Assembly (NCBI GenBank): GCA_963823965.1
Contig: CAWGNO010000014.1
Span: 44,698 to 108,697, forward strand
DNA length: 64,000 nt
Direction of reading: 5' to 3'
From: an uncultured Actinomycetota bacterium
Lineage (GTDB): Bacteria > Actinomycetota > Actinomycetes > Propionibacteriales > Nocardioidaceae
A model generated the notes under the pieces. That model was not told the DNA's origin, searched no databases, and saw only the letters and a program-made list of their open reading frames with translations. The position numbers and the translations under genes were made by a program. Shown in pieces: positions 993 through 5,058 of this stretch (positions are counted from its first letter, which is position 1; each line of letters opens with the position of its first letter).

Positions 993-2600
993 TCAGGCAC
1001 CGACCGGCTGCGCCTCGGCCTCGGCCGGGGCGGTCCGTGTCTCGTCGATCTCGTCGGCACGCGCGATGGTCGTGCGCAGCGGCACCTCCCGGATCATCAG
1101 GACCGCGACCAGTGCCAGGACGGCGAACGGGGTGGCCAGCCAGAAGATGTGGCCGGTCGCGTCGGCGAACGCGGTCTGGAACACCTCGCGCACGGGCGCC
1201 GGGAGGGTCGCCAGGTCGGGGACGGACGTGCCGGTCCCCTCGGCACTCGGCGCGATCCCCAGGGCGACGAGTCCGGCGGCGACCCCCGCGCTCACCTTGT
1301 GCCCCAGCGCGGTGCCCATCGCCGAGACCCCGACCGAGCCGCCCATCGTGCGGAAGAAGGCGGCCAGGGAGCTCGCGGCGCCCATGTCGGCCTGGGCTGC
1401 GTTGTTCTGCACCACCAGGACGAGGTTCTGGTTCACCGCCCCGATCCCGATGCCCAGGACGGCCATGAAGGCGCCGACCTCGAACAGGCCGATCGTGGCG
1501 TCGATGGTGCTGAGCAGGGCCAGCCCCGTCACCATCAGGACGGCGCCGCCGACGATGTAGCGCTTCCAGGTGCCGGTCCGGGCGATCAACCGGCCGGTCA
1601 CGATGCTGGAGACGAGCAGGCCTCCGACCATGGCCAGGGACATCAGGCCGGCCCGGGTCGGGGACATGCCGCGGGCGAGCTGGAAGTACTGCGAGAGGAA
1701 GACCGTGGCCCCGAACATCGAGACCCCCACCATGACGGAGGCGAAGACGGCCAGGCTCGTGGTGCGGTCCCGGAAGAGCCGGAGCGGGATGATCGGCTCG
1801 GCGACCCGGGTCTCGACGTACACGAACGCGAGCAGGAGCGCGAAGCCCAGGCCGAGCATCCAGGCGGTCGTCGGCGACTGCCAGGCGAACCGGGTGCCGG
1901 CGAGGGAGACCCAGAGCAGGAGCACCGAGACGCCCGAGGCGACGAGGGCGGCGCCGAGGTAGTCGATCGAGACCTGCCGCTTCACGGTGGGCAGGTGCAG
2001 GGTCTTCTGGAGGACGACGAACGCCAGGGCGGCGAAGGGGACGCCGACGAAGAACGTCCAGCGCCAGCCCAGCCAGGAGGTGTCCACGATGAGCCCGCCG
2101 ATGAGAGGTCCGCTGACCGTGGCGATCGCGAAGACCGCACCGAGGTAGCCGAAGTACCGGCCACGCTCGCGGGGGGAGACGATCGTCGCGATCACGATCT
2201 GGACCAGCGCGGTCAGGCCGCCGACACCGACGCCCTGGACCGCGCGGGCGCCGATGAGGAACCCCATGCTGGGGGCGAGCCCGGCCATCAGCGACCCGGC
2301 CAGGTAGATCACGAGGGCCACCTGCACCAGCACCTTCTTGCTGAACAGGTCGGCCAGCTTGCCCCAGATCGGGGTCGTGGCGGTGAGCGCCAGGAGGGTC
2401 GCCACCACCACCCAGGTGTAGCCCGACTCGCTGCCCTCGAGGTCGGCGACGATGCGCGGGAGCGCGTTCGACACGACCGTCGAGGAGAGCATCGCGACGA
2501 ACATGGCGATCAGGAGGCCGGAGAGGGCTTCCAGCACCTCACGGTGCGACATGGGCTCCGCCGTGTGGGCGGGGGCCGGGGAGTGGGGGGTGCGGGTCAC
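993..2600 (-). CDS. DHA2 (EmrB/QacA-type) 14-TM MFS efflux transporter
   Basis: MLSSTVVSNALPRI, WGKLADLFSKK, ARAVQGVGVGG, RERGRYFG motifs; GTG at 2600 preceded by GAGGA. Confidence 0.92.
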   Translation of the reverse strand: MTRTPHSPAPAHTAEPMSHREVLEALSGLLIAMFVAMLSSTVVSNALPRIVADLEGSESGYTWVVVATLLALTATTPIWGKLADLFSKKVLVQVALVIYLAGSLMAGLAPSMGFLIGARAVQGVGVGGLTALVQIVIATIVSPRERGRYFGYLGAVFAIATVSGPLIGGLIVDTSWLGWRWTFFVGVPFAALAFVVLQKTLHLPTVKRQVSIDYLGAALVASGVSVLLLWVSLAGTRFAWQSPTTAWMLGLGFALLLAFVYVETRVAEPIIPLRLFRDRTTSLAVFASVMVGVSMFGATVFLSQYFQLARGMSPTRAGLMSLAMVGGLLVSSIVTGRLIARTGTWKRYIVGGAVLMVTGLALLSTIDATIGLFEVGAFMAVLGIGIGAVNQNLVLVVQNNAAQADMGAASSLAAFFRTMGGSVGVSAMGTALGHKVSAGVAAGLVALGIAPSAEGTGTSVPDLATLPAPVREVFQTAFADATGHIFWLATPFAVLALVAVLMIREVPLRTTIARADEIDETRTAPAEAEAQPVGA

Positions 2601-2628
2601 GTACGTGGTCCTCGTGGCTCTGGCGGGA

Positions 2629-2677
2629 ATAGTTGCTGTCCGCAACTATAGCTCCGGACGGTTGCCGACGACAACTA
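2629..2677. promoter_or_regulatory. Paired inverted repeats (probable MarR operators) over the MFS promoter
   Basis: ATAGTTGC-tgtcc-GCAACTAT (2629-2649) plus degenerate copy GGTTGC-cgacg-ACAACTA (2660-2677); minus-strand TTGTCG-N18-TATAGT promoter overlaps both. Confidence 0.65.
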
Positions 2678-2699
2678 ATTTCACCTGCCGGAAATGTTC

Positions 2700-2729
2700 T
2701 TGTCGCGCTCACCAGGGCCGTCGTACCGT
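2700..2729 (+). promoter_or_regulatory. Principal-sigma-type promoter for the small ORF/RNA locus
   Basis: TTGTCG (2700-2705)-N18-TACCGT (2724-2729). Confidence 0.5.
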
Positions 2730-2760
2730 GGAGGGACACGAGGAAGGAGGTGGTCCAGAA

Positions 2761-2799
2761 GTGAATTCTTTACGGACTCGTGAGGTGGCTGCTAGCTAG
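2761..2799 (+). CDS. Candidate 12-aa small peptide (VNSLRTREVAAS)
   Basis: Perfect SD AAGGAGGT at 2744-2751, 9 nt before GTG; upstream promoter; stop codon lies in a 16-bp palindrome. Confidence 0.45.
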   Translation: MNSLRTREVAAS

Positions 2800-2872
2800 C
2801 AGCACACCGGCCAGCACGACTGTGCCCTTCGGCATGAGACCGGTGGGCAGCTGGCAATACCGAGCAGTCACC

Positions 2873-2952
2873 CGACCCGCAGGTGCTCCGGGACGTCCGC
2901 CCGGAGAGCGACCGTCCTCGTCGAGGACGGAGCCGCACACGCCTGCGGGTCG
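2873..2952 (+). ncRNA. Structured RNA element (three-way junction), family unassigned
   Basis: Perfect 11-bp closing stem 2873-2883/2942-2952 enclosing perfect hairpins 2886-2906 (7 bp) and 2912-2930 (8 bp). Confidence 0.5.
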
Positions 2953-2970
2953 TCTGCGTTCCGAGGGCCG

Positions 2971-5058
2971 TCAGGACACGGCCGGCGCAGCGAACTGCGC
3001 GCCGTGGAGCGCGGCGTACGCCCCTTCTGCCGCCAGCAGCTCCGCGTGGGTGCCCCGCTCGACGATCCGGCCCTCCTCCATCACGAGGATCAGGTCCGCG
3101 TCGCGGATCGTCGAGAGCCGGTGCGCGATGACGAAGCTGGTCCGGTCGGTCCGCAGCGCCGCCATGGCGTGCTGGACCAGCAGCTCGGTGCGGGTGTCCA
3201 CCGAGCTGGTCGCCTCGTCCAGGATCAGCAGGGCGGGGTCGGACAGGAACGCCCGGGCGATCGTGACCAGCTGCCGCTCCCCTGCGCTGATGTTGCCGCC
3301 CTCCTCGTCGATGACGGTGTCGTAGCCGCCCGGAAGCGCGTGCACGAACCGGTCGACGAAGGCCGCCTGCGCCGCCTCGACGATCTCCTCCTCCGTGGCG
3401 TCCGGCCTGCCGTAGGCGATGTTGTCGCGGATGGTGCCGCCGAACAGCCACGTGTCCTGGAGCACCATCCCGATCTGCGACCGCAGCTCGGCCCGCGGCA
3501 TCCGCGCGATGTCGACGCCGTCCAGCGTGATCCGGCCCTCGTCGACGTCGTAGAACCGCATCACCAGGTTCACCAGGGTCGTCTTGCCCGCGCCCGTGGG
3601 ACCCACGATGGCCACCGTCTGCCCCGGCCGCGCGACCAGCGACAGGTCCTCGATCAGGGGCGTGTCCTCCTCGTAGCGGAAGGAGACGTGCTCGAGGGCC
3701 ACCTCGCCGCGCTGCTCGGGAGCCGCACCTTCGCGGGCGACCTCGACCGGCTCCTCCTCGGCGTCGAGCAGCTCGAAGACGCGCTCGGCCGAGGCGACGC
3801 CGGACTGCAGCAGGTTCACCATGGACGCCACCTGCGTCAGCGGCTGGGTGAACTGCCGGGAGTACTGGATGAACGCTTGCACGTCCCCGAGCGACATCGT
3901 GCCGCCGGCGACCCGCAACCCGCCGAGGACCGCGATCACCACGTAGTTGAGGTTCCCGATGAACATCATCGTCGGCATGATCACGCCGGAGACGAACTGC
4001 GCTCCGAAGCTGGCCTTGAACAGCTCCTCGTTCTCCTCGTCGAAGACCTGCTCCACCTCGCGCTGGCGGCCGAACACCTTGACCAGGGCATGCCCGGTGT
4101 AGGCCTCCTCGACGTGTGCGTTGAGCCGGCCGGTGCGCCGCCACTGCGCGACGAAGAGCTTCTGGCTGCGCCTCATGATCGCGCCGGTGACCAGGATGCT
4201 CACCGGGATCGTGACCAGGGCGACCAGCGCCAGGACCGGCGAGATCCAGAACATCATCGCCACCACGCCCACGACGGTCAGCAGCGAGGTCACCAGCTGG
4301 CTCATCGTCTGCTGCAGGGTCTGGCTGACGTTGTCGATGTCGTTGGTGACCCGGCTGAGCAGCTCGCCGCGGGGCTGCTTGTCGAAGTAGCGCAATGGCA
4401 GCCGGTTGATCTTCTCCTCCACGTCGGCGCGCATCCGGAAGACCGTGGCCTGCACGACGTCGTTGAGCAGGAAGCCCTGCAGCCACCCGAGTGCGGCGGA
4501 CGCGACGTACACACCCAGCGCCAGCAGGAGGACCTGCCCGACGGCGGAGAAGTCCACCCCCTGCCCCGGGACCAGGTGGTCGACCCCGGACAGCAGCTCG
4601 GCGATCTGGTCCTCGCCGCGTGCCCGCGCGGCGGCGACGGCCTGCTGCTGCGTGATGCCCGGCGGCATCTGCTTGCCGAGCACGCCGGCGAAGATCAGGT
4701 CCGTCGCGCGGCCGAGGATCTTGGGCCCGACCACGGCGAGGGCCACGCTGAGCACGCCGAGGGAGAGGACGGTGAGCACCTTCGCGCGCTGCGGCCGGAG
4801 CCGCCCGATGAGCCGGCGCGCGGACGGCCCGAAGTTCTCGGACTTCTGGCCCACCATGCCGCCGCCGAAGGGTCCGCGCCCGGGGCCGGGGCCCTGGACG
4901 ACCCGCTCGGTCTCCTTCATCCGCCCCGAGGCAGCCGCTGCAGCCTGGCCGTCGCCCGCCGGGCCCTGCCCGTCGCCCGCACCCGGCCTGTGCCCGTTGG
5001 TCGACAGCGATGCCTGGCCGTCGGTACCGGGCTTCTGCCCGTTGGTCTGCCCGCTCAC
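2971..5058 (-). CDS. ABC exporter subunit (TMD+NBD), heterodimer partner with canonical catalytic residues
   Basis: Walker [10 protein letters not shown], signature ISAGERQL, Walker [10 protein letters not shown]-switch IAHRLST; N-terminal TM domain. Confidence 0.93.

What the first reader, a model, noticed from the sequence alone, without database searches (positions are those of the whole stretch)
2700..2803. Stand-alone 12-codon ORF with its own promoter, perfect SD and a folded translation start
Seen: TTGTCG-N18-TACCGT promoter, then AAGGAGGT (2744-2751) 9 nt before GTG AAT TCT TTA CGG ACT CGT GAG GTG GCT GCT AGC TAG (VNSLRTREVAAS). The stop sits in a perfect 16-bp palindrome GCTGCTAGCTAGCAGC (2788-2803). 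The start region can fold: CACGAG 2737-2742 with CTCGTG 2777-2782, GTCC with GGAC, and AGAA/TTCT with GTG in the loop. No longer gene follows on this strand. Inference: one of the best SDs in the window serves only this tiny ORF, suggesting a real micropeptide or a dual-function sRNA with a regulated translation start. This is my best candidate for an undescribed system.
Basis: partly seen in the sequence, partly recalled or inferred. Interest (0 to 1): 0.72.

Follow-up and report, generated by a model that had tools for sequence, protein, structure and literature searches.

The report
Translated mini-gene RNA, antibiotic-stress promoter
The 12-codon reading frame is real, but it sits inside a known, function-unknown actinobacterial small RNA (Ms_IGR-5); the tiny frame is conserved across the phylum, and the promoter looks like those switched on by ribosome-targeting antibiotics.

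Summary
The locus is not undescribed. Window 2736-2958 (+) is a full-length member of Rfam RF02471, Ms_IGR-5 (110.5 bits, cut-off 45). This sRNA is single-copy, widespread in Actinomycetota, and has no known function.

Three results go beyond the database entry.

1. The mini-ORF is conserved as a frame. In 200 distinct homologues the first ATG/GTG/TTG after the SD lies in the frame of the conserved stop in 178, against 7 in the other two frames. A stop (TAG, TGA or TAA) sits exactly three codons after an invariant GAG GTG in 239 of 239. In-frame stops are almost absent.

2. Residue identity follows RNA structure and the codons are atypical. The conserved thing is therefore probably translation itself, not the peptide.

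3. The promoter matches the WblC/WhiB7 consensus. Only six places in this genome match it loosely, and one is whiB7's own promoter.

Published M. abscessus data show the homologue is the only ncRNA induced by erythromycin, with ribosome footprints about 53 times its RNA level.

Best reading: a WhiB7-type, translation-stress RNA that works by being translated. The mechanism is inferred. No transcript data for this organism could be obtained.

The parts
2691..2696 (+). AT-rich GAAATG motif 3 bp upstream of the -35 element (WblC/WhiB7-type activator site, consensus GAAAWY)
   Evidence: Sequence. The consensus GAAAWY-N3-(-35) comes from PMC7157823. Across 165 distinct homologous promoters, A is 85-88% at -7 and -6, and A/T is 92% at -5, in genomes of about 70% GC.
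2700..2729 (+). Promoter: -35 TTGTCG (2700-2705), 18-nt spacer, -10 TACCGT (2724-2729)
   Evidence: Conserved in all 30 close relatives. TTG-N16-19-[T]ANNNT is found in 174 of 239 homologues, mostly with a 17-nt spacer.
2736..2958 (+). Ms_IGR-5 small RNA (Rfam RF02471), full length
   Evidence: cmscan gives 110.5 bits (gathering 45), E 6e-26, model positions 1-184 of 184. Single copy in the genome. MFE -113 kcal/mol, z -4.6. The predicted TSS at about 2736 is 7 nt after the -10 element.
2737..2782 (+). 5' hairpin. H1 pairs CACGA 2737-2741 with TCGTG 2778-2782. H2 pairs GTCC 2753-2756 with GGAC 2774-2777. The SD lies in the 5' bulge and the start codon in the loop.
   Evidence: MFE. (150 sequences): H1 pairs show 42, 21 and 27 double changes, and 0 of 500 shuffles reach the observed score. 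(RNAalifold).
2744..2756 (+). Extended Shine-Dalgarno AAGGAGGTGGTCC. By my own knowledge of the 16S tail, it has 13 nt of complementarity (one G-U) to the 3' end GGAUCACCUCCUU.
   Evidence: GGAGGTG is invariant or nearly so in 150 sequences.
2761..2799 (+). 12-codon mini-ORF, GTG AAT TCT TTA CGG ACT CGT GAG GTG GCT GCT AGC TAG (VNSLRTREVAAS)
   Evidence: Frame, start and stop are conserved. In 178 of 200 sequences the first start codon is in frame, against 4 and 3 in the other frames. In-frame stops are 3 of 1787, against 268 of 1889 and 154 of 1839.
2782..2787 (+). Second SD-like box GAGGTG, invariant, ending exactly 9 nt before the stop codon
   Evidence: Invariant columns. A stop lies 3 codons after GAG GTG in 239 of 239 sequences.
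2784..2872 (+). Middle domain. A long-range helix pairs GGTGGCTGCT 2784-2793 with AGCAGTCACC 2863-2872. It encloses the hairpin 2795-2810/2840-2855. The stop codon and the 16-nt palindrome 2788-2803 lie inside this domain.
   Evidence: MFE. RNAalifold consensus with compensatory changes: 6 at one pair and 12 at another. Examples include GGTGGCTACG/CGTAGCCACC and GGTGACGGTC/GGCCGTCACC. Arm I2.
2873..2952 (+). 3' domain. The closing stem pairs CGACCCGCAGG 2873-2883 with CCTGCGGGTCG 2942-2952, over two hairpins (2886-2906 and 2912-2930). It is the probable terminator.
   Evidence: (I6, I7). Each pair of the closing stem shows 5-11 double changes. No U-tail terminator was found by the scan.
2645..2681 (-). 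Divergent promoter of the MFS exporter gene (993-2552, -): AAAT-TAG-TTGTCG-N18-TATAGT. It is also of WblC/WhiB7 type and lies back to back with the sRNA promoter.
   Evidence: promoter scan; with strict 3-nt spacing it is one of only 2 hits in the genome, the other being whiB7's own promoter. Pfam MFS_1.

Best explanation
Window 2736-2958 is the organism's single copy of the actinobacterial small RNA Ms_IGR-5.

Proposed mechanism, with shown and inferred steps marked:

1. Transcription. It starts from a SigA-type promoter carrying the AT-rich WblC/WhiB7 activator motif. The RNA would therefore be made mainly when translation is inhibited. The motif and its conservation are shown. Dependence on WhiB7 is inferred, with support from published data on homologues.

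2. Initiation. The 5' third of the RNA is a mini-cistron. An unusually long SD sits in a bulge of a conserved hairpin and would capture a 30S subunit. Initiation is at GTG 2761, in the hairpin loop.

3. Elongation. The ribosome reads 12 codons. To do so it must melt the 3' arm of the 5' hairpin and then the 5' arm of a long-range helix. In that helix a second SD-like box (GAGGUG) is masked by a downstream anti-SD-like GUCACC.

4. Termination. It occurs at a stop held exactly 9 nt after that second box. The structure and frame conservation are shown. Ribosome transit is inferred, and is supported by published ribosome profiling in mycobacteria.

5. What selection keeps. It keeps the act of translation, meaning start, frame, stop and spacing. 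It does not keep the peptide sequence.

6. Likely function. The RNA most likely reports on, or acts on, ribosomes during antibiotic stress through a translation-coupled refolding that frees the GCAGUCACC strand. The downstream output is unknown.
For: Family membership:
- 110.5 bits against a cut-off of 45, full model.
- One copy per genome in 40 of 41 relatives and in 83 of 301 genomes sampled across the phylum.

Translation:
- Start, frame and stop are conserved in 239 loci, using ATG, GTG and TTG starts and all three stop codons.
- The SD-to-start gap varies from 6 to 12 nt in nearly all in-frame cases, while ORF length changes only by whole codons (12-15).
- Out-of-frame stops are 50-90 times more frequent than in-frame stops.
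- M. abscessus homologue: TSS mapped, 70 RPKM by RNA-seq but 3737 RPKM by ribosome profiling. No other ncRNA listed in the part of the table that was read exceeds a ratio of about 2.

Structure:
- H1 covaries.
- The long-range helix and the 3' stem are in the RNAalifold consensus with compensatory changes.
- z-score -4.6.

Peptide not selected:
- The codon before GAG follows the helix.
- GAG GTG is invariant at wobble positions.
- AAT, TCT, TTA and ACT occur 0 times in 1216 flanking codons.

WhiB7 link:
- GAAATG-TTC-TTGTCG-N18-TACCGT against the published consensus GAAAWY-N3-TKGMNN-N16-19-TANNNT.
- The motif is conserved across several actinobacterial genera, including Mycobacterium-like, Streptomyces-like and the window's own genus.
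- Only 6 relaxed matches exist in 4.2 Mb. They include whiB7's own promoter and both divergent promoters of this intergenic region.
- The genome encodes a WhiB7 with an AT-hook.
- The homologue is the only ncRNA induced by erythromycin in M. abscessus, at +2.67 log2.
- S. coelicolor has a 21.6-fold WblC ChIP peak for an 'antisense RNA' over citA2 (SCO4388). That is the gene lying convergent to the sRNA in Streptomyces-like loci.
Against: - No transcript, TSS or ribosome data exist for this organism.
- In one family of another class (f17) and parts of another, the in-frame start is CTG. A few sequences have only ATC, ATT, ATA or ACG, so translation may not be universal.
- The high footprint density could reflect a bound, non-translating ribosome or a co-sedimenting RNP. 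The authors of PMC4974804 raise this themselves.
- The window's activator motif and -35 element each match the consensus at 5 of 6 positions.
- The identity of the S. coelicolor peak with this RNA is inferred from synteny and approximate coordinates, not from sequence.
- Notes from other agents in this scan place relatives in phyla that have no WhiB7. WhiB7 control would then be a lineage-specific overlay.
- The refolding model rests on predicted structures only.
Confidence: 0.6

Rival explanations
1. Ribosome or anti-SD decoy. The RNA acts by holding 30S or 70S particles through its 13-nt SD and the second GAGGUG box. This would titrate or mark ribosomes, or free leaderless mRNAs from competition. 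The ORF would serve only to load and release the particle.
For: - SD complementarity extends far beyond normal.
- There are two invariant SD-like boxes.
- Footprints are about 53 times RNA abundance in M. abscessus.
- Induction accompanies ribosomal-protein genes under erythromycin.
Against: - A pure decoy needs no start codon, fixed frame or stop, yet all three are under selection.
- A single-copy sRNA at 70 RPKM uninduced is small next to the ribosome pool.
- The second box is base-paired in the predicted ground state.
Confidence: 0.15
2. Ordinary non-coding, base-pairing sRNA. The SD-like and C-rich motifs are seeds or internal structure, and the ORF is a by-product of nucleotide conservation.
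For: - Nucleotide-level conservation exceeds what coding needs.
- Codon usage is atypical.
- The family is filed as an sRNA and was first recovered by Hfq co-immunoprecipitation.
- Some lineages lack a canonical start.
Against: - Starts interchange among ATG, GTG and TTG, and stops among TAG, TGA and TAA, at fixed positions.
- Indels inside the ORF are whole codons, while the spacer upstream varies freely.
- In-frame stops are strongly depleted in an A/T-rich stretch full of out-of-frame stops.
- There is heavy ribosome occupancy.
Confidence: 0.1
3. Functional micropeptide. The 12-residue product (motif T-x-E-V-A/T-A/G-x) is the effector, for example acting on the ribosome that makes it.
For: - The C-terminal half T-x-E-V-[AT]-x-x is widely kept.
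- Peptides made from mini-genes can act in cis on macrolide-bound ribosomes. This rests on my own knowledge of the E. coli 23S rRNA pentapeptide work and was not checked here.
Against: - Each conserved residue is encoded by an RNA motif: GGAC of a helix, the GAGGUG box, a helix strand.
- No synonymous variation occurs at E or V in 239 sequences.
- The residue before E changes freely along with its pairing partner.
- The N-terminal half is unconserved.
Confidence: 0.08
4. Cis-acting element of a neighbour. It would be a leader or attenuator, or the source of an antisense transcript that silences the convergent gene (the ABC exporter here, citA2 in Streptomyces).
For: - Lee et al. list the S. 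coelicolor transcript as an antisense RNA of SCO4385/6/8.
- The window's RNA points into the 3' end of a convergent ABC exporter gene, 12 nt beyond the Rfam match.
- No U-tail terminator was detected.
Against: - Neighbours differ between lineages: ABC exporter, pdxH, citrate synthase, methyltransferase-like gene, ygfZ/pabC. The RNA itself stays constant.
- No same-strand downstream gene is conserved.
- Discrete sRNAs of 164-179 nt were mapped in M. abscessus and M. smegmatis, and S. avermitilis has a transcription unit with mapped start and end.
Confidence: 0.07

Closest known systems
Ms_IGR-5 sRNA (Rfam RF02471; M. smegmatis IGR-5 = ncMSMEG15794c; M. abscessus ncMab10731; S. lividans SLIV_16488)
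   Same: Full-length covariance-model match well above the gathering score. It shares the three structural domains, is intergenic, is single-copy and occurs in actinobacteria.
   Different: Nothing in the locus itself differs. The papers held in the library do not mention the mini-ORF's conservation or a WhiB7/WblC-type promoter for this family. No function has been assigned to the family.
whiB7 5' leader with its uORF (ribosome-stalling attenuator of the WhiB7 antibiotic-stress regulator)
   Same: Same promoter type (AAAT-N3-TTG...TANNNT). A strong SD of the GAAGGAGGTG type is followed by a short ORF. Both are induced by ribosome-targeting drugs. Both elements exist in this genome.
   Different: The whiB7 uORF here is about 90 codons long and Ala-rich. 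It is followed by a U-tailed terminator and by the whiB7 gene that it controls. Ms_IGR-5 has 12 codons and controls no downstream gene in cis.
Macrolide-sensing leader peptides of erm genes (ErmCL, ErmDL and others)
   Same: A tiny ORF with a good SD whose translation remodels RNA hairpins. The window's peptide contains R-T-R, which resembles the +X+ macrolide arrest motif (my own knowledge).
   Different: No regulated downstream cistron exists. R-T-R is not conserved: mycobacteria have W-T-C and others have G-T-L or G-P-R.
Dual-function sRNAs (SgrS/SgrT, RNAIII/hld, SR1/SR1P)
   Same: A stand-alone small RNA that also carries a translated short ORF.
   Different: In those cases the peptide is conserved as a protein and acts on its own. 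Here residue identity is dictated by RNA motifs. A base-pairing target has not been shown.
Caulobacter sRNA CC2171 (Rfam RF01867)
   Same: It shares the 5' motif GAAAGGAGGUGAUCCAG, a long complement of the 16S 3' tail (alignment).
   Different: The match scores only 17.6 bits against a cut-off of 75. It is limited to that motif plus a terminal hairpin and is not a family match.

Membership tests
Ms_IGR-5 (Rfam RF02471) | Covariance-model score at or above the curated gathering score, over the whole model | tested here: met
   110.5 bits against 45, E 6e-26, model 1-184 of 184, not truncated. The whole-genome search gives the same result.
Ms_IGR-5 (Rfam RF02471) | Conserved secondary structure supported by covariation | tested here: met
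   The 5' helix has 42, 21 and 27 double changes, and 0 of 500 shuffles reach it. The long-range helix and the 3' closing stem are in the RNAalifold consensus, with up to 12 and 11 double changes per pair.
Ms_IGR-5 (Rfam RF02471) | Independent intergenic transcript in an actinobacterium | tested here: inconclusive
   The locus is intergenic with its own conserved promoter. Named relatives carrying the same 5' domain are Nocardioides, Marmoricola, Mycobacterium and others. Homologues are transcribed.
WblC/WhiB7-activated promoter | AT-rich GAAAWY motif 3 bp upstream of the -35 element | tested here: met
   GAAATG at 2691-2696, then TTC, then TTGTCG. This is 5 of 6 with exact spacing. The motif is conserved across 165 homologous promoters.
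WblC/WhiB7-activated promoter | -35 TKGMNN, spacer 16-19 (best 17-18), -10 TANNNT | tested here: met
   TTGTCG (5 of 6), an 18-nt spacer and TACCGT.
WblC/WhiB7-activated promoter | A WhiB7 orthologue with a C-terminal AT-hook in the genome, and the same motif at its own autoregulated promoter | tested here: met
   C16:82398-82682 encodes ...EPWGVWGG...RKRPRGRPRK. Its promoter is TTAAAT-GGT-TTGCCG-N17-TAAGTT, with a uORF leader and terminator. It is one of only 2 strict or 6 relaxed motif hits in the genome.
WblC/WhiB7-activated promoter | WhiB7-dependent induction by translation inhibitors | not testable with these tools
   Only indirect evidence exists. The homologue is induced by erythromycin in M. 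abscessus. A WblC ChIP peak lies at the probable S. coelicolor locus.
Antibiotic-sensing leader peptide / attenuator (erm, whiB7 uORF type) | The short ORF controls a downstream gene on the same transcript | tested here: not met
   No same-strand downstream gene is present in the window, and none is conserved among 59 loci with flanks.
Antibiotic-sensing leader peptide / attenuator (erm, whiB7 uORF type) | A conserved arrest motif in the peptide | tested here: not met
   R-T-R is present here and in many relatives, but it is replaced by W-T-C, G-T-R, G-P-R, G-T-L or E-T-L elsewhere.
Dual-function sRNA with a functional small protein | Selection on the amino-acid sequence (synonymous variation, conserved residues not explained by RNA) | tested here: not met
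   GAG GTG is invariant at wobble positions. The variable residues follow helix covariation. Rare codons are used.

The most novel reading that the evidence does not exclude
Ms_IGR-5 is a conserved effector of the WhiB7/WblC intrinsic-resistance programme that acts directly on ribosomes. When translation is poisoned it is switched on. It would then use its 13-nt SD, 12-codon frame and stop-proximal second SD to run ribosomes through a very short initiation-termination cycle. Possible outcomes are clearing or testing drug-bound ribosomes, parking them, or occupying anti-SD tails so that leaderless mRNAs are favoured. This would be a new kind of RNA-based antibiotic-stress device, distinct from both base-pairing sRNAs and cis attenuators.
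Probability: 0.15. Interest if true: 0.9.

Novelty: new member of a known kind. Interest (0 to 1): 0.62.

Why it matters
Ms_IGR-5 is one of the most widely conserved actinobacterial small RNAs, yet it has no assigned function. This analysis gives it two concrete, testable properties.

- Its mini-ORF is kept as a frame across the phylum, which argues that translation is part of how it works.
- Its promoter carries the signature of the WhiB7/WblC regulon, which governs intrinsic resistance to ribosome-targeting antibiotics in mycobacteria and streptomycetes.

Published data already show erythromycin induction and extreme ribosome loading of a homologue.

If confirmed, the RNA would be a conserved, previously overlooked member of that regulon. 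It would also be a tractable model for RNAs that act by being translated. Deletion, start-codon and recoding mutants in M. smegmatis or S. coelicolor would settle the question.

Tried and rejected
- tRNA or tmRNA: none in 2000-3500.
- Intrinsic terminator with a U-tail: none found by the scan.
- Other Rfam families: only sub-threshold chance hits (CC2171 at 17.6 of 75 bits, sucA-II, two miRNAs).
- Cis leader of a downstream gene: rejected, because the flanks differ between lineages.
- Literature search for the peptide strings (TCEVAA, TREVAA, WTCEV): no hits. The fourth term, RTREV, matched only unrelated words.
- Search for Mtb-style names (ncRv0812 and similar): nothing.
- The M. tuberculosis Ribo-RET supplement, which is truncated in the library, does not list the peptide. 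Presence and translation in M. tuberculosis therefore remain open.
- Li et al. 2013, the original description, is not held.
No read-level evidence could be obtained for this organism.
- The local palindrome hairpin 2788-2803 as a conserved element: its columns do not line up in other lineages, so it was not tested further. The conserved structure there is the long-range helix.
- My ungapped search for the partner of the second SD box is biased towards finding pairs. Its control was weak: 76% of own partners reach 9 of 10 pairs, against 60% of foreign partners. I rely on RNAalifold for that helix.
Full report
**1. The observation**

- Promoter: TTGTCG 2700-2705, an 18-nt spacer, TACCGT 2724-2729.
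- SD: AAGGAGGT 2744-2751, then nine bases.
- ORF: GTG AAT TCT TTA CGG ACT CGT GAG GTG GCT GCT AGC TAG, at 2761-2799.
- Palindrome: the stop lies in the perfect 16-nt GCTGCTAGCTAGCAGC at 2788-2803.

CACGAG 2737-2742 pairs with CTCGTG 2777-2782 in the minimum-free-energy fold. The region is the 418-bp spacer between two minus-strand genes. One is an MFS exporter (993-2552) and the other an ABC exporter (2971-5058). No longer + strand gene follows.

The octamer AAGGAGGT occurs twice in the window, against 0.49 expected. Ten of 100 shuffles reach two, so it is not remarkable by itself.

**2. What it is**

A scan against Rfam places window 2736-2958 (+) in RF02471, Ms_IGR-5, "Actinobacteria sRNA". 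The score is 110.5 bits against a gathering score of 45, with E 6e-26, and the whole model is matched.

Distribution:
- It is single-copy in the 4.2-Mb genome.
- It is present once in 40 of 41 relatives, including 24 of 24 genomes of the same genus.
- It is present in 83 of 301 genomes sampled across the phylum, including other classes.
- Named genomes with the same 5' domain include Nocardioides, Marmoricola, Mycobacterium (fast and slow growers), Mycolicibacterium, Mycobacteroides, Rhodococcus, Kineococcus, Cellulomonas, Catellatospora and Pseudonocardiales.
- The window's peptide variant (VNSLRTREVAA-S/R) is the Nocardioidaceae type.

The literature held knows the RNA only as an expressed sRNA of unknown function:
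- M. smegmatis IGR-5 = ncMSMEG15794c, 179 nt.
- S. lividans SLIV_16488, validated by RNA-seq.
- An S. avermitilis sRNA unit with mapped start and end.
- M. abscessus ncMab10731 with a mapped TSS.

**3. The mini-ORF is conserved as a frame**

I collected 239 homologous loci. I anchored them on the invariant GAG GTG. A stop codon lies exactly three codons later in 239 of 239. Among the 200 distinct sequences the stops are TAG 165, TGA 19 and TAA 16.

Among those 200 distinct sequences:
- The first ATG, GTG or TTG at least 4 nt after GGAGGT is in the frame of that stop in 178.
- It is in the other two frames in 4 and 3.
- No canonical start is present in 15, mostly lineages with CTG at the homologous position.

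The distance from SD to start is 6-12 nt in nearly all in-frame cases. The ORF changes only by whole codons (12, 13, 14 or 15).

Between the SD and the anchor there are 3 in-frame stop triplets in 1787 positions. The other two frames have 268 of 1889 and 154 of 1839.

The 120 loci from the public-genome scan were selected with a pattern that specified neither start nor stop. All 120 have both. The sequences are related, so these are not independent counts. Even so, the many combinations of start type, stop type, spacer length and ORF length show repeated maintenance of the frame.

**4. The peptide itself does not look selected**

- The conserved residues are all spelled by RNA motifs. R/G/W-T comes from NGG-ACN, the GGAC strand of a helix. 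E-V comes from the GAGGUG box. The last residues come from a helix strand.
- GAG and GTG never vary at the third position.
- The residue before E is R, C, L, E, Y, H or P, changing together with its pairing partner in the 5' arm. Examples are CACGAG/CUCGUG, CACAAG/CUUGUG, CUUC/GAAG, CGUA/UACG, CCAG/CUGG and CGUGAG/CUCACG.
- In the window, AAT, TCT, TTA and ACT are absent from 1216 codons of the two flanking genes. The ORF is 51% GC in a 72% GC window. A tRNA-Leu(UAA) does exist.

**5. Structure**

Three helices are supported.
- **H1** (2737-2741 with 2778-2782). It closes a hairpin that carries the SD in a 5' bulge and the start codon in the loop. Three of its pairs show 42, 21 and 27 double compensatory changes in 150 sequences, and no shuffle of 500 reaches the observed covariation. 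H2 (GUCC/GGAC) is conserved but nearly invariant.
- **A long-range helix.** It pairs GGUGGCUGCU (2784-2793: the second SD-like box plus codons 9-11) with AGCAGUCACC (2863-2872). It is in the MFE fold and in the RNAalifold consensus of 30 class-level sequences, with compensatory changes at five pairs (examples).
- **The closing stem of the 3' domain** (2873-2883 with 2942-2952). It covaries strongly, with 5-11 double changes per pair.

The whole RNA folds at -113 kcal/mol, z -4.6. The ORF therefore runs along the 3' strand of the first domain and the 5' strand of the second. A ribosome reading it must open both.

**6. The promoter is of the WhiB7/WblC type**

Homologous promoters share an A-rich block just upstream of the -35 TTG. 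A is 85-88% at -7 and -6, A/T is 92% at -5, and C/T is 69% at -4. G is the commonest base at -9. This is in genomes of about 70% GC.

Lee et al. 2020 define WblC-activated promoters as GAAAWY, 3 bp, TKGMNN, 16-19 bp (best 17-18), TANNNT, with the TSS 7-8 bp further on (PMC7157823). Burian et al. 2013 show that the AT-rich motif next to the -35 element is what WhiB7's AT-hook needs (PMC3905903).

The window reads GAAATG-TTC-TTGTCG-N18-TACCGT. The Rfam match begins 7 nt after the -10 element.

The genome encodes a WhiB7 orthologue with the RGRP AT-hook (C16:82398-82682). Its own promoter is TTAAAT-GGT-TTGCCG-N17-TAAGTT. That is followed by a uORF with a GAAGGAGGTG SD and by a U-tailed terminator.

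- A strict search of the genome (AAA[AT]-N3-TTG-N3-N16-18-TANNNT) finds two sites. They are the whiB7 promoter and the minus-strand promoter of the MFS gene that diverges from the sRNA.
- A relaxed search finds six sites, with the sRNA promoter among them.

**7. Published expression data fit**

In M. abscessus (PMC4974804, supplementary tables) the homologue has 70 RPKM by RNA-seq and 3737 RPKM by ribosome profiling. For comparison, 6C has 10836 and 865, and SRP RNA has 1794 and 490. No other ncRNA in the part of the table that was read exceeds a ratio of about 2. The text lists it among sRNAs with significant ribosomal reads in both M. abscessus and M. smegmatis.

It is the single ncRNA among 287 erythromycin-responsive genes, at +2.67 log2, alongside ribosomal-protein genes. 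It appears again at +1.14 in a later sheet. From its position in the file that sheet is most probably kanamycin. In that study whiB7 and 7 of 8 regulon homologues respond to erythromycin.

In S. coelicolor, WblC ChIP-seq gives a 21.6-fold peak at 4,805,770. It is assigned to an "antisense RNA with independent promoter" over SCO4385/6/8. SCO4388 is the citrate synthase citA2. In Streptomyces-like loci of my sample a citrate synthase gene lies convergent, directly after the sRNA (L040 and L043). I infer that this peak is the Ms_IGR-5 promoter. I could not align the S. coelicolor sequence itself.

**8. Mechanism**

Shown:
- family membership;
- the three helices;
- conservation of start, frame, stop and SD-to-stop spacing;
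- the promoter motif and its rarity in the genome.

Taken from the literature on homologues:
- transcription;
- erythromycin induction;
- heavy ribosome occupancy.

Inferred:
- WhiB7 activates the promoter under translation stress.
- A 30S subunit is captured by the 13-nt SD, which by my own knowledge of the 16S tail is complementary to GGAUCACCUCCUU.
- The ribosome initiates in the hairpin loop and melts H1 and the long-range helix.
- It terminates with the second SD-like box 9 nt behind the stop.
- The GCAGUCACC strand is thereby released.

What the released strand, or the engaged ribosome, then does is unknown. I put 0.6 on this composite. My estimates for its parts are about 0.97 for membership, about 0.8 for translation being selected, about 0.65 for WhiB7 control and about 0.35 for the refolding output.

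**9. Rivals**

- A ribosome or anti-SD decoy (0.15).
- A purely non-coding sRNA (0.10).
- A functional micropeptide (0.08).
- A cis or antisense element of a neighbour (0.07).

These are discussed in their own sections. The main weaknesses of my reading are:
- some lineages have non-canonical starts;
- footprints might come from bound rather than translating ribosomes;
- notes from other agents of this scan place relatives of the family in phyla without WhiB7 (not checked here).

**10. Novelty**

The locus is a new member of a known family. What appears not to be in the papers I could search is the phylum-wide conservation of the mini-ORF and the WhiB7/WblC-type promoter. Other agents of this scan had already reached the "translated micro-ORF RNA" reading for relatives.

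Noticed in passing
window 2629-2681 (- strand promoter of the MFS gene 993-2552): The divergent MFS exporter gene has its own WblC/WhiB7-type promoter, AAAT-TAG-TTGTCG-N18-TATAGT. With strict spacing it is one of only two such sites in the genome; the other is whiB7 itself. A 21-bp palindrome, ATAGTTGC-TGTCC-GCAACTAT (2629-2649), lies just downstream of its -10 element and looks like a repressor operator. The two activator motifs are only about 10 bp apart, back to back.
   Followed up: partly
genome contig C16:81932-82682 (outside the window): This is the whiB7 orthologue, with a C-terminal RGRP AT-hook. Its roughly 430-nt leader holds a uORF of about 90 codons, Ala-rich, behind a GAAGGAGGTG SD. 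A GC-rich hairpin with a T-run follows. This is the classical whiB7 attenuator layout.
   Followed up: partly
L156 (contig labelled Zixibacteria MAG) and L196 (contig labelled Gammaproteobacteria MAG): Both carry the RNA's 5' domain. L196 has the mycobacterial-type peptide LVDLWTCEVAAS, so the contig is probably mis-binned. L156 is AT-rich and divergent (LINTELSEVAAT), so it may be a true relative outside the phylum.
   Followed up: no
loci L002, L008, L011, L014, L015, L016, L017, L019, L023 (same genus): In these relatives the gene diverging from the sRNA is a different exporter, an MFS_3 (EntS-like) family member, instead of the window's MFS_1 gene. An efflux gene next to the sRNA promoter therefore recurs, but with different families.
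   Followed up: partly
genome contigs C2:2581 and C12:2583 (- strand): Identical promoter-like sequences, AATACTCCTTGGTGACCGATAGCGGACAAGTACCGT, sit at the same distance from two contig ends. They are probably part of a repeated element such as an rRNA operon flank.
   Followed up: no
loci L053-L059, L071-L085 (family f17 of another class): The homologous start position holds CTG, with TTG in sister lineages carrying the same following codons CAT AAA CCG. The upstream neighbour is a divergent ygfZ-like folate-binding gene. The same gene family lies one gene further upstream in the mycobacterial loci.
   Followed up: partly
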